Shown: one piece after another, positions 23,884 to 46,144 of the stretch
How positions within the stretch are numbered: the first letter of the stretch is position 1
Layout: each line of letters begins with the position of its first letter
DNA from: Stegostoma tigrinum
Lineage: Eukaryota
NCBI RefSeq assembly: GCF_030684315.1
Contig: NC_081393.1
Span: 10,117,565 to 10,181,564, forward strand
Reading direction: 5' to 3'
Length of the DNA: 64,000 nt
Notes under the pieces: model-generated
Databases searched by the model: none
The model's input: the letters and a program-made list of their open reading frames with translations, nothing else
Told to the model about the DNA's origin: nothing
Program-made: the position numbers and the translations under genes

Positions 23884-24039
23884 CTAACCCAAGTGAGATT
23901 TGTTCCTTTTCTTCAGACCTCGATTGCAGGTTGGGTTCCAGTGCTTCCAGCTTGACTCACAGCTATTTCTGTAGATCTGCACGTCATCAATTGCAGCATC
24001 GCTCTGATAGCTCGATCCCAGCACACCTTCAATAATCAC
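23884..24039 (-). CDS. Astacin-like gene exon 12 (end of MAM domain, stop codon)
   Basis: 156 nt, VIIEGVLGSSYQSDAAIDDVQIYRNSCESSWKHWNPTCNRGLKKRNKSHLG*; AIDDV...C MAM terminus. Confidence 0.9.
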   Translation of the reverse strand: MIIEGVLGSSYQSDAAIDDVQIYRNSCESSWKHWNPTCNRGLKKRNKSHLG

Positions 24040-45000: not shown

Positions 45001-46144
45001 TTTTCAGGCAGAACTCACCGTATTGTTGTGATATTTCATATGGAATTCTCACTACGCCATCTGGCGATTTCTGCCATGTCTTGGTATCAGACACCACAGC
45101 ATTTCTCCATAGCTGATTGAAGGGGTAAAGAAGATAGTAAGTTGTGTGCACACAGCATCTCAAAGATGGGATACACATGCAATACAAGAACAATGTACCA
45201 GAGATATAAGCTTTAAAACTAATAAACATGTTGCCTCACTATCAAAATATTGCAGAATCCCAAGAATCATCATGAGTGCATCTATTAAGTCATCAGTAAT
45301 GTGGAAACAATCAAACTTTAAGAGGCAAAAAATAAACATCAAGTTGCACCAAAATCTAAGACACTTTCTAGAACAAAATATAATCAGTGTCAACACAGTA
45401 TATAATGCACTCTCTCACAGTTAGAAGGGGTCATGGAGCATCCTGCATTCATCGGTAAAAAACTGAAATACAACTGAAAGGAACTTACAGGTTTGACAAT
45501 GTCACCTTCAATGAGGAAGTTCCTCCATGGCTTTTCATATCGAAATATTCCTATAAGCAGGAGAGCAAATGTTCATAGCTTGATCCATCAGCCCAATCAA
45601 GATGCTGTATCAAGCAGCCAGTGTCAAGAAGACAATTACAGTACTAACACAGTAATTTACAACATGGCAATGCAATTAAACATGTCGATTGATTTTGAAC
45701 TGCTGCAAAAAAATCTATACTTGGGGAGTGGACAAATTTCTATTTCATTGTTGGGCAAGTTGCAGTGGAGGGGAGTTTGGAAAGAGAGATCGATCTCTGG
45801 AAGTCATACAGTTAAAGGAGTGCCTGGCAGCTACTGAAGAACAGTTTCAAGACAGTGAAGTATAGCAAGATGTTAATTCAGGAACTTACGCTGGTTAATC
45901 CTGACAATTGCATCCTCTGCTGTAACGACTGTCTTGGTTTGAACAGTATCCAGAAGAAAGCTGTTGTTTTGCTTCTTAACCTCGCTCTGTCTGACTGCTG
46001 CAGTATTTACAGAGACAGTTGTTACAACAGAGAGATTAGAATATCTTGCTCATAGGACAAAGTGAAAAGAAAACCGCCACTACCTTTCAGTACAACAGCC
46101 AAGATGAGAAACAGGAATTGCCACTCTCTGTTCTTTAAACTCAT
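23884..46144 (-). CDS. ASTL: Ovastacin (ASTL)-like astacin metalloendopeptidase with mucin-like stalk and C-terminal MAM domain; spliced CDS of 12 exons, about 1609 aa
   Basis: Exons 46084-46144, 45890-45997, 45489-45550, 45019-45112, 42410-42527, 38597-38778, 37656-37737, 34296-34456, 28843-32391, 27563-27688, 26925-27055, 23884-24039; all introns GT-AG, phase-compatible, 4830 nt total with no internal stop; zinc motif [18 protein letters not shown]. Symbol assigned by similarity; orthology not proven. Confidence 0.8.
24878..25782. mobile_element. Probable solo LTR (905 bp) inserted into a CR1 fragment in the last intron of the astacin-like gene
   Basis: Termini TGTTAC...GCAACA, 4-bp TSD aggg (24874-24877, 25783-25786); CR1 sequence lies on both sides. 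Confidence 0.6.
26925..27055 (-). CDS. Astacin-like gene exon 11 (MAM domain)
   Basis: 131 nt, (G)SLNVFLKYEQSTSWHKLWSVSGNQGRKWLNAEIDIFTNGDKFR; LW...GNQG..W MAM motif. Confidence 0.9.
27563..27688 (-). CDS. Astacin-like gene exon 10 (MAM domain)
   Basis: 126 nt, (G)RYLYLEASFPQQSGEQATLVSPPLRGQKCLTFWYNMFGKHM; canonical MAM motifs. Confidence 0.9.
28843..32391 (-). CDS. Astacin-like gene exon 9 (3549 nt: linker, Pro/Thr/Ser mucin-like repeat, start of MAM domain)
   Basis: Inside ORF 28817-32434; pyrimidine-rich acceptor at 32392-32393 in phase 1, matching exon 8; ends CDFELGLCDWEQSTTDDFDW...TGPKRDHTKGQCKARG then gtaagg donor. Confidence 0.82.
29240..31270 (-). repeat. Coding 30-bp tandem repeat (about 67 units) encoding DTLPVS(T/S)xx(T/A/I) decapeptides
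   Basis: actggcagagtgtctg core recurs every 30 nt with no indels; gives a Pro/Thr/Ser-rich mucin-like translation. Confidence 0.97.
34296..34456 (-). CDS. Astacin-like gene exon 8 (end of protease domain)
   Basis: 161 nt, (R)TAFSKNGQPTLRPLIETDIMIGQRIRLSELDLLKINRLYNCTMHLKDKANVLK; IGQR..LS..D...IN.LY.C motif. Confidence 0.92.
34610..36730 (-). mobile_element. Degraded CR1 LINE relic
   Basis: RT remnants in ORF 34953-35204 and GVPQGLVL-like sequence near 35850. Confidence 0.7.
34710..34921. mobile_element. Fold-back Penelope-terminus element (astacin-like gene intron 7, inside a CR1 relic)
   Basis: Inverted arms; TSD agctaactattc(a/t)ca at 34695-34709 and 34922-34936. Confidence 0.85.
36845..37188 (-). 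mobile_element. tRNA-derived SINE (HE1/V-SINE-like)
   Basis: 5' gggcagcacggtagctcagtgg (A box), degenerate B box, central gtgtggagtttgcac...ggtttcctcc core, CR1-like tail. Confidence 0.85.
37656..37737 (-). CDS. Astacin-like gene exon 7 (Met-turn region)
   Basis: 82 nt, (G)YEHNFLKQNTNNLETKYDYGSILHYS; YDYxSxxHY motif with Leu at the Met position. Confidence 0.92.
38597..38778 (-). CDS. Astacin-like gene exon 6 (zinc-binding active site)
   Basis: 182 nt, [60 protein letters not shown]; astacin HExxHxxGxxHExxRxDR signature. Confidence 0.96.
39050..41640 (-). mobile_element. Degraded CR1 LINE relic (endonuclease and RT remnants)
   Basis: ORFs 39942-40238 (TNLLEFFE, FQKAFDKLPH) and 41207-41615 (GGVALL, YCPP). 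Confidence 0.75.
40335..40571 (-). mobile_element. Probable short solo LTR inserted into a CR1 relic
   Basis: TG...CA termini, tctt(t/g) flanking repeat, TATA-like ttataaa on the minus strand; interrupts CR1 sequence. Confidence 0.55.
41897..42249 (+). mobile_element. tRNA-derived SINE (HE1/V-SINE-like)
   Basis: A box tggctcagtgg, B box ggttcgattcc, same core and tail as 36845-37188. Confidence 0.85.
42410..42527 (-). CDS. Astacin-like gene exon 5
   Basis: 118 nt, (D)EETWSSISRGFKDFEKFTCVHFVPHSDEKDFISIQPIH(G); TC.xF and DFISI motifs. Confidence 0.9.
45019..45112 (-). CDS. Astacin-like gene exon 4 (activation site, start of protease domain)
   Basis: 94 nt, LWRNAVVSDTKTWQKSPDGVVRIPYEISQQY; R-NA maturation site and W...G.V.IPY motif. 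Confidence 0.9.
45489..45550 (-). CDS. Astacin-like gene exon 3 (prodomain aspartate switch)
   Basis: 62 nt, (R)IFRYEKPWRNFLIEGDIVKP with the astacin propeptide EGDI motif. Confidence 0.88.
45890..45997 (-). CDS. Astacin-like gene exon 2 (prodomain)
   Basis: 108 nt, (A)VRQSEVKKQNNSFLLDTVQTKTVVTAEDAIVRINQ; ends in the I..IN prodomain motif; gtaagt donor. Confidence 0.78.
46084..46144 (-). CDS. Astacin-like gene exon 1 (signal peptide)
   Basis: MSLKNREWQFLFLILAVVLK: basic N-region plus hydrophobic core; GT donor in phase 1; not in the ORF track because it is short. Confidence 0.7.

What the first reader, a model, noticed from the sequence alone, without database searches (positions are those of the whole stretch)
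23884..46144. Ovastacin-like protease fused to a long mucin stalk and a MAM domain
Seen in sequence: a 12-exon, phase-consistent ORF encoding signal peptide, EGDI prodomain, 4-Cys astacin domain, ~370-aa linker, ~67 PTS decapeptides and a MAM domain, with no TM or GPI tail. Known: the protease segment (GGMQV.SL...CL.KG.G...HE.MH.LGFWHEH.R.DR) closely resembles mammalian ovastacin, the cortical-granule ZP2 protease, which has no MAM domain. Meprins have MAM directly after the protease, and zonadhesin pairs MAM with mucin repeats but has no protease. Inference: this is an architecture I do not recognise in vertebrates, possibly a secreted, tethered egg-coat or mucus protease of cartilaginous fish.
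Basis: partly seen in the sequence, partly recalled or inferred. Interest (0 to 1): 0.82.

Follow-up and report, generated by a model that had tools for sequence, protein, structure and literature searches.

The report
Shark ovastacin keeps ancestral long tail
This shark gene is the counterpart of ovastacin, the enzyme that hardens the coat of fertilised mammal eggs, and it carries a long, likely sugar-coated stalk and a MAM domain also found in frog, reptile, echidna and marsupial versions, so the short tail of the placental enzyme is likely a cut-down remnant of this older layout.

Summary
The 12-exon gene is real: 1609 aa, all introns GT-AG, with signal peptide, prodomain, 4-Cys astacin domain, 388-aa spacer, 67 PTS decapeptides and a MAM domain. 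It is the ovastacin (ASTL) orthologue. The protease tree groups it with tetrapod ASTL (94/91). A grouping with hatching/C6 astacins is rejected (p 0.017). TMEM127, SNRNP200 and NCAPH lie 130-190 kb away.

The layout is not special to cartilaginous fish. Protease + long P/T/S-rich stalk + MAM recurs in chimaera, frogs, lizards, snakes, turtles, alligator, echidna, marsupials and probably lamprey. None of 27 named placental entries has MAM. Only the neat decapeptide repeats are shark-specific.

There is prior art. A 2022 tree already files the MAM-bearing ghost-shark and frog proteins as ovastacin.

I did not find in print that mouse's nine exons match shark exons 1-9, making the placental C-terminal region (origin 'unknown' in a 2025 review) a truncated stalk exon. 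Nor did I find frog ASTL named as the unidentified Xenopus ZP2 protease. Function in sharks is untested.

The parts
46084..46144 (-). Exon 1: start codon and signal peptide
   Evidence: same N-terminus and exon 1-2 join in the whale-shark model P0383
45890..45997 (-). Exon 2: propeptide, with the first part of the cortical-granule-motif equivalent (aa 48-56)
   Evidence: present in P0001; motif comparison
45489..45550 (-). Exon 3: propeptide with the latency aspartate D73
   Evidence: mouse D77
45019..45112 (-). Exon 4: start of the catalytic domain (mature N-terminus inferred near N81)
42410..42527 (-). Exon 5: catalytic domain, Cys128
   Evidence: (weak Pfam hit, E 0.06)
38597..38778 (-). 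Exon 6: zinc-binding motif H178, E179, H182, H188; Cys149, Cys168
   Evidence: E 3e-23; only close copy among 12 matches in the genome
37656..37737 (-). Exon 7: Met-turn with Leu232 in place of Met; Tyr234
34296..34456 (-). Exon 8: end of the catalytic domain (R260, Cys277), followed by a dibasic site
   Evidence: a contig of run X1 covers exactly this exon
28843..32391 (-). Exon 9 (3549 nt, phase 1-1): basic unique spacer, 67 acidic PTS decapeptides, first strands of MAM
29221..31282 (-). 30-nt tandem array coding the mucin-like decapeptide block
   Evidence: (68.7 copies)
27563..27688 (-). Exon 10: MAM, profile positions 45-85
   Evidence: single match in the genome; joined to exon 9 in a contig of run X1
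26925..27055 (-). Exon 11: MAM, profile positions 88-129
23884..24039 (-). Exon 12: end of MAM, basic C-terminal tail, stop; first AATAAA at 23628

Best explanation
This is the shark orthologue of ovastacin (ASTL) with a protease + stalk + MAM layout shared across jawed vertebrates, and it is likely an oocyte-secreted zinc protease that clips egg-coat (ZP) proteins at fertilisation.

Shown: gene structure, catalytic motifs, orthology, and the same layout in many lineages.

Inferred steps: (1) It is made as a zymogen held shut by D73 and likely sorted to cortical granules by the exon 2/3 propeptide motif. (2) The PTS block is likely O-glycosylated into an extended acidic spacer. MAM likely binds a granule, oolemma or coat partner, or a second copy, so the enzyme is tethered without a membrane anchor. 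(3) Trypsin-like cuts at the propeptide and at the dibasic site 12 residues after the domain would activate and free the protease, as the mouse tail is cut off and stays at the egg membrane. (4) Limited cleavage before Asp in a ZP subunit would harden the envelope. (5) Placental mammals likely gained a stop about 150 codons into exon 9 and lost the MAM exons.
For: Orthology: after cartilaginous fish, the best hits are tetrapod (mostly mammalian) ASTL at about 250-263 bits, against about 210 or less for hatching enzymes. Careful tree: chondrichthyans + Amia + tetrapod ASTL 94/91, placental ovastacins nested inside the long tetrapod forms at 100/97, 99/96 and 95/92. Quick tree 95. AU test rejects chondrichthyan + hatching/C6 clade, p 0.0167. 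A separate MAM tree groups the same lineages, SH-aLRT 91.

Synteny: SNRNP200, TMEM127 and NCAPH are 132-189 kb from the gene. The human 2q list reads ASTL, STARD7, TMEM127, SNRNP200, NCAPH.

Landmarks: eight mouse positions (D77, C132, C153, C172, H182, M236, R264, C281) all sit exactly 4 residues later than in the model. The granule motif spans exons 2/3 in mouse and here, with 4 of 9 residues identical. Mouse has nine exons and a 152-aa tail that is cut off and stays at the plasmalemma.

Substrate side: frog ZP2 is cut by an astacin-like metalloprotease of unknown identity. Fetuin-B's inhibitory motif is kept in all jawed vertebrates. The genome holds ZP1/4-like, ZPAX-like and ZP3-like genes.
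Against: No expression data: no listed run is on record as RNA, and run X1 gives no tissue. No ZP2 gene was located (blank; the 4 loci followed up were ZP1/4- or ZPAX-like). The granule motif is only partly kept, and its I..N core also occurs in hatching enzymes. The Met-turn is Leu, and the family D after the zinc motif is G in this species; effects on activity are untested. Tail sequences of placental and long forms show no BLAST similarity, so the remnant claim rests on exon number, phase, position and tree nesting. Sharks are physiologically polyspermic (recalled), so a polyspermy block is not the expected role. The own-species RefSeq model (P0001, 504 aa) stops inside exon 9.
Confidence: 0.6

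Rival explanations
1. It is the ASTL orthologue, but in sharks it works outside the oocyte, for example in the oviducal gland, sperm storage, mucus or the embryo, with the mucin stalk holding it in a mucus layer.
For: Tandem mucin-type decapeptides occur only in sharks. No ZP2 found. Astacins of the sister group change tissue readily (PMC8812170).
Against: Propeptide motif, exon layout and spacing follow the oocyte enzyme. Single copy in the genome, so no duplicate was freed for a new role.
Confidence: 0.25
2. The main product is a short protease that ends in or skips exon 9, and the 1609-aa form is a minor or merely possible splice form.
For: The own-species RefSeq model uses a short intron inside exon 9 and stops. 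Exon 9 is phase 1-1 and is shortened or skipped in catshark, tortoise and manta models. 89 of 136 ASTL-type entries lack MAM. The exon 8-9 join was not seen in reads.
Against: Exon 9 stays open for 3549 nt through 67 repeats. The shark MAM is 82% identical to that of Heterodontus. An exon 9-10 junction contig exists in a relative. Skipping would remove the first MAM strands. Many no-MAM entries are partial or split models, for example basking shark P0002 + P0397.
Confidence: 0.1
3. It is a meprin-like or independently fused astacin-MAM gene, and its likeness to ovastacin is convergent.
For: RefSeq calls it meprin A beta-like. The one meprin MAM examined shares the third cysteine pair. Astacin-MAM proteins occur widely in invertebrates.
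Against: No TRAF, EGF or TM part. Meprin scores well below ASTL and hatching enzymes and falls outside the clade in both trees. Synteny matches ASTL. Only one meprin was in the trees.
Confidence: 0.05

Closest known systems
Mammalian ovastacin (ASTL, M12A)
   Same: Same clade and syntenic block; 4-Cys catalytic domain; identical spacing of eight landmarks; nine-exon core; disordered tail starting in exon 9
   Different: Placental tail is about 150 aa without MAM, against 1143 aa plus MAM here; Met-turn Leu; granule motif 4 of 9 identical; function untested here
Ghost shark, Xenopus, turtle and platypus 'Ovastacin' of Nagasawa et al. 2022 (PMC8812170, Fig. S1)
   Same: XP_007905686.1 (P0387, 1272 aa) and XP_031755136.1 (P0400, 972 aa) have astacin + long linker + MAM; P0387 aligns to the model at both ends
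   Different: Used there as an outgroup; the text read does not discuss stalk or MAM of ovastacin; no 10-aa tandem block in chimaera or tetrapods
Meprin alpha/beta
   Same: Astacin plus MAM; third Cys pair in MAM (one meprin seen)
   Different: Meprin MAM follows the protease directly, then TRAF, EGF, TM; outside the clade in both trees
Hatching enzymes and C6 astacins
   Same: Nearest sister group; act on egg envelopes
   Different: Six Cys, CUB or no tail; grouping rejected by AU test; a separate astacin cluster on contig C20 is their likely locus (not tested)
Alveolin (medaka cortical-granule astacin)
   Same: Proposed functional analogue: envelope hardening
   Different: S-PRO-CD only; no sequence was available, so its relation was not tested
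LAST_MAM (Limulus) and lamprey/hagfish S-PRO-CD-MAM astacins
   Same: Secreted astacin ending in one MAM
   Different: The lamprey entry listed as meprin-like (XP_032808477) has another accession than the lamprey protein found here (XP_032808037); no long stalk is reported for these

Membership tests
Astacin (M12A) | Signal peptide, propeptide with latency Asp, HExxHxxGxxH + ExxRxDR | tested here: met
Astacin (M12A) | Met-turn SxMHY | tested here: inconclusive
   Leu replaces Met; the same in all chondrichthyans and amphibians examined, alligator and one turtle; 57 Leu, 70 Met, 9 unread of 136
Ovastacin/ASTL | Catalytic domain in the ovastacin clade | tested here: met
   94/91, 95, AU p 0.0167 against the hatching clade
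Ovastacin/ASTL | Synteny with the human 2q11.2 block | tested here: met
   SNRNP200, TMEM127, NCAPH within 190 kb; immediate neighbours differ (DDX56-like, TMED); STARD7, DUSP2 and ADRA2B not searched
Ovastacin/ASTL | Four, not six, Cys in the catalytic domain | tested here: met
Ovastacin/ASTL | Cortical-granule motif across exons 2 and 3 | tested here: inconclusive
   same position and exon split, 4 of 9 identical
Ovastacin/ASTL | Oocyte-specific expression and storage in cortical granules | not testable with these tools
   no RNA holder listed; no tissue for run X1
Ovastacin/ASTL | Cleaves ZP2 before Asp; inhibited by fetuin-B | not testable with these tools
   R260 matches mouse R264, but ZP2 was not located
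Meprin | MAM next to the protease, then TRAF, EGF, TM | tested here: not met
C6 astacin / hatching enzyme | Two extra N-terminal Cys; CUB or no tail | tested here: not met

The most novel reading that the evidence does not exclude
Ovastacin predates jawed vertebrates as a tethered protease-stalk-MAM enzyme (lamprey, bichir, gar, bowfin, paddlefish, sharks, tetrapods). The placental C-terminal region is the stump of its stalk exon, the same truncation is happening independently in rays, and the long frog form is the Xenopus ZP2 protease unidentified since 1989. That would make post-fertilisation coat cleavage by this one gene an ancestral vertebrate mechanism.
Probability: 0.45. Interest if true: 0.68.

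Novelty: new member of a known kind. Interest (0 to 1): 0.47.

Why it matters
A 2025 review calls the origin of ovastacin's C-terminal region unknown and says ovastacin is not orthologous to non-mammalian astl proteins (PMC12281054; the second statement may mean the hatching-enzyme genes also named astl). A 2020 review says the frog ZP2 protease is unidentified (PMC7155028). The shark gene and its orthologues offer a testable answer to both: the tail would be a truncated stalk exon, and frog ASTL is the obvious candidate. The orthology itself is already in a 2022 supplementary tree and the domains are in public annotations, so this is a clarification rather than a new system. It also corrects a truncated, misnamed RefSeq model.

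Tried and rejected
Shark-specific architecture: rejected.

Third MAM cysteine pair as an ASTL signature: rejected. The meprin MAM has it and all 5 frogs examined lack it.

Complete MAM loss in rays: not settled. Ray models are 160-517 aa, but one manta isoform keeps an exon-10 piece.

Sequence homology between placental tail and long stalks: none at E 1e-3.

ZP2 in this genome: two Pfam searches blank with blank controls. Of 150 listed ZP-C matches (340 candidates), 16 exons were read and 4 loci followed up; these were one trefoil-bearing ZP1/4 type and three ZPAX types. This does not show absence.

Expression: no RNA holder listed. The second read-laying gave no result, so exon joins other than 9-10 remain unseen.

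A fold of the lamprey protein was submitted and never finished (last try); no structural claim is made. No earlier findings of the scan.

Teleosts and neognath birds were not seen among named hits, but only 20 unnamed hits were looked up, so this is not a tested absence. Trees held one meprin and no alveolin. One search left out 20 of 81 rows (redundant or degenerate), one search used 56 rows, and both used LG+G4 without the mixture model. Lamprey and bichir join the clade only at 73/95.

Full report
Observation. Twelve minus-strand exons between 46144 and 23884 join with GT-AG introns into a 1609-aa frame with one stop. It has a signal peptide, a propeptide with D73, and a catalytic domain with Cys128/149/168/277 and H178-E179-H182-H188. 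A 388-aa basic spacer, 67 decapeptides (62% P+T+S, net charge -66) and a MAM domain follow; the MAM profile positions map in order on exons 9-12. There is no C-terminal hydrophobic segment. Exon 6 has one close match among 12 astacin matches in the genome, and exon 10 has a single match. The exon-6 search returned an identical zebra-shark RefSeq protein (P0001, 504 aa, 'meprin A subunit beta-like'). That model splices inside exon 9 into another frame and stops. Heterodontus (1343 aa), Pristiophorus (1462 aa) and Callorhinchus (1162 aa) models carry protease, long linker and MAM. A contig from run X1 (a relative, RNA only guessed, intronic contigs also present) ends at the exon 9 donor and continues with exon 10 sequence, 28 of 30 letters alike by eye. 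The exon 8-9 join was not observed.

Identity. Beyond cartilaginous fish the best hits are tetrapod ASTL proteins. In a 56-row maximum-likelihood tree of the catalytic domain, chondrichthyans, bowfin and tetrapod ASTL form a clade at 94/91. Placental ovastacins nest inside long tetrapod forms at 100/97, 99/96 and 95/92, and lamprey and bichir join at 73/95. A 61-row quick tree gives 95. Forcing chondrichthyans with hatching/C6 enzymes is rejected (AU p 0.0167). A 53-row tree of MAM domains alone groups lamprey, bowfin, paddlefish, bichir, gar, chondrichthyans and tetrapods (SH-aLRT 91) apart from meprin and invertebrate MAMs. SNRNP200, TMEM127 and NCAPH lie 132-189 kb from the gene on contig C52, and are listed next to ASTL on human 2q (PMC10137620, one passage). 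Nearer neighbours are a DDX56-like gene (name recalled; no Pfam hit), a p24/TMED gene, a 5'-nucleotidase and a PHO4/SLC20 transporter. Eight mouse landmarks from D77 to C281 all lie 4 residues after their shark counterparts.

Distribution of the layout. Astacin + long linker + terminal MAM is present in frogs, squamates, turtles, alligator, echidna and marsupials. Measured tetrapod linkers are about 250-2340 aa and 27-38% P+T+S. It is also present in lamprey (733 aa, linker 42% PTS), bichir and gar (two MAMs), and in short form in bowfin and paddlefish. Of 402 proteins held, 136 scored as ASTL-type; 47 have MAM sequence downstream (one only an exon-10 piece) and 89 do not. The 89 include all 27 named placental entries, most ray models, four ratite or tinamou models, several lizards, and partial or split models. 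The search that gave most placental entries was limited to 154-490 aa, but the 868-2475 aa search listed no placental among 84 hits. Period-10 tandem repeats are strong only in sharks. Mouse Astl has nine exons and a 152-aa tail; here exon 9 is the stalk and exons 10-12 finish MAM. The simplest reading is a stop early in exon 9 in placentals. This is inferred from exon order and tree nesting, since the tails share no detectable sequence. Two manta species stop about 160 aa into the exon-9 equivalent, and one keeps an exon-10 piece in another isoform, which looks like a parallel truncation but rests on annotations.

Mechanism. By established astacin biology and mouse data, the likely path is: secretion as a zymogen, storage in cortical granules through the exon 2/3 motif (4 of 9 identical), trypsin-like activation, release from the stalk at the dibasic site 12 residues after Cys277 (kept in Heterodontus, not in Pristiophorus), and limited cutting of a ZP subunit before Asp. 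The stalk would be an O-glycosylated spacer and MAM an adhesion or dimer module that tethers the enzyme. None of these steps was tested. Against it: no expression data, no ZP2 located, a Leu Met-turn, and the own-species short model. I put 0.93 on orthology with the long form expressed in some amount, and 0.6 on the egg-coat mechanism.

Prior art. Nagasawa et al. 2022 (PMC8812170; text parts 1-4 of 5 and supplement 1 part 1 of 3 read, figures not visible) list ghost shark, frog, turtle and platypus 'Ovastacin' in one clade. The ghost-shark and frog accessions are MAM-bearing proteins of 1272 and 972 aa. The legend of their Fig. 2B names MAM, and meprin appears neither in the text nor in the tree, so MAM is probably drawn on ovastacin. 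PMC9848320 (passages; Table S1 part 1 of 3) lists ovastacin only as S-PRO-CD-LC. PMC12281054 (passages, sections 9-10) calls the tail's origin unknown. PMC7155028 (passages) calls the frog protease unidentified. Also seen as passages: PMC5293279, PMC11821946, bioRxiv 2023.06.21.544075 and 2022.12.06.519252 (their supplements not seen). Ten searches of an open-access library found no text describing the stalk-MAM form or the truncation; subscription journals were not covered.

Verdict. A real gene and a new member of a known family, not a new or shark-specific system. Its value lies in exposing the ancestral form of ovastacin and in naming tests for two stated open questions. Interest 0.47.

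Noticed in passing
window 53586-63460 (-): p24/TMED (TMED4/9-like) gene upstream on the same strand; four exons seen, last exon Pfam EMP24_GP25L.
   Followed up: partly
window 37656-37737 (-): Met-turn Met is Leu in all chondrichthyan and amphibian ASTLs examined, alligator and one turtle, but Met in most amniotes, lamprey, bichir and bowfin.
   Followed up: partly
P0011, P0379, P0378: Two manta species end about 160 aa into the stalk exon at the same place; one isoform keeps an exon-10 MAM piece. 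Possible truncation parallel to placentals.
   Followed up: partly
G000:C38:39.5-42.3 Mb and G000:C45:1.9-8.7 Mb: Large tandem arrays of ZP-domain exons, about 70 and about 60 of the 150 listed matches; single exons read look ZP1/4-like on C38 and ZP3-like on C45 (likeness recalled).
   Followed up: no
L061-L064, L054-L056, L045-L046: Two tandem ZPAX-like genes on C4, one on C58, and a trefoil-bearing ZP1/4-type gene on C35 (family names recalled).
   Followed up: partly
G000:C20:14.20-15.08 Mb; G000:C52:16.64 Mb: Cluster of six astacin exon matches on C20 (likely the hatching/C6 locus) and one more astacin on the same contig as this gene.
   Followed up: no
window 48688-48992: Perfect 153-bp tandem duplication, 100% identical: recent duplication or assembly artefact.
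   Followed up: no
window 62378-63150: 32-33 bp minisatellite in the first intron region of the TMED gene.
   Followed up: no
window 3800-20400: Dense reverse-transcriptase-type retroelement fragments (LINE-like, by recalled likeness) downstream of the gene.
   Followed up: no
P0145-P0147: Lamprey proteins with three tandem astacin domains, several degenerate.
   Followed up: no
P0256, P0333, P0369: Bichir and gar ASTL-like proteins carry two MAM domains; tetrapod MAMs are on long branches and lose conserved motifs.
   Followed up: partly
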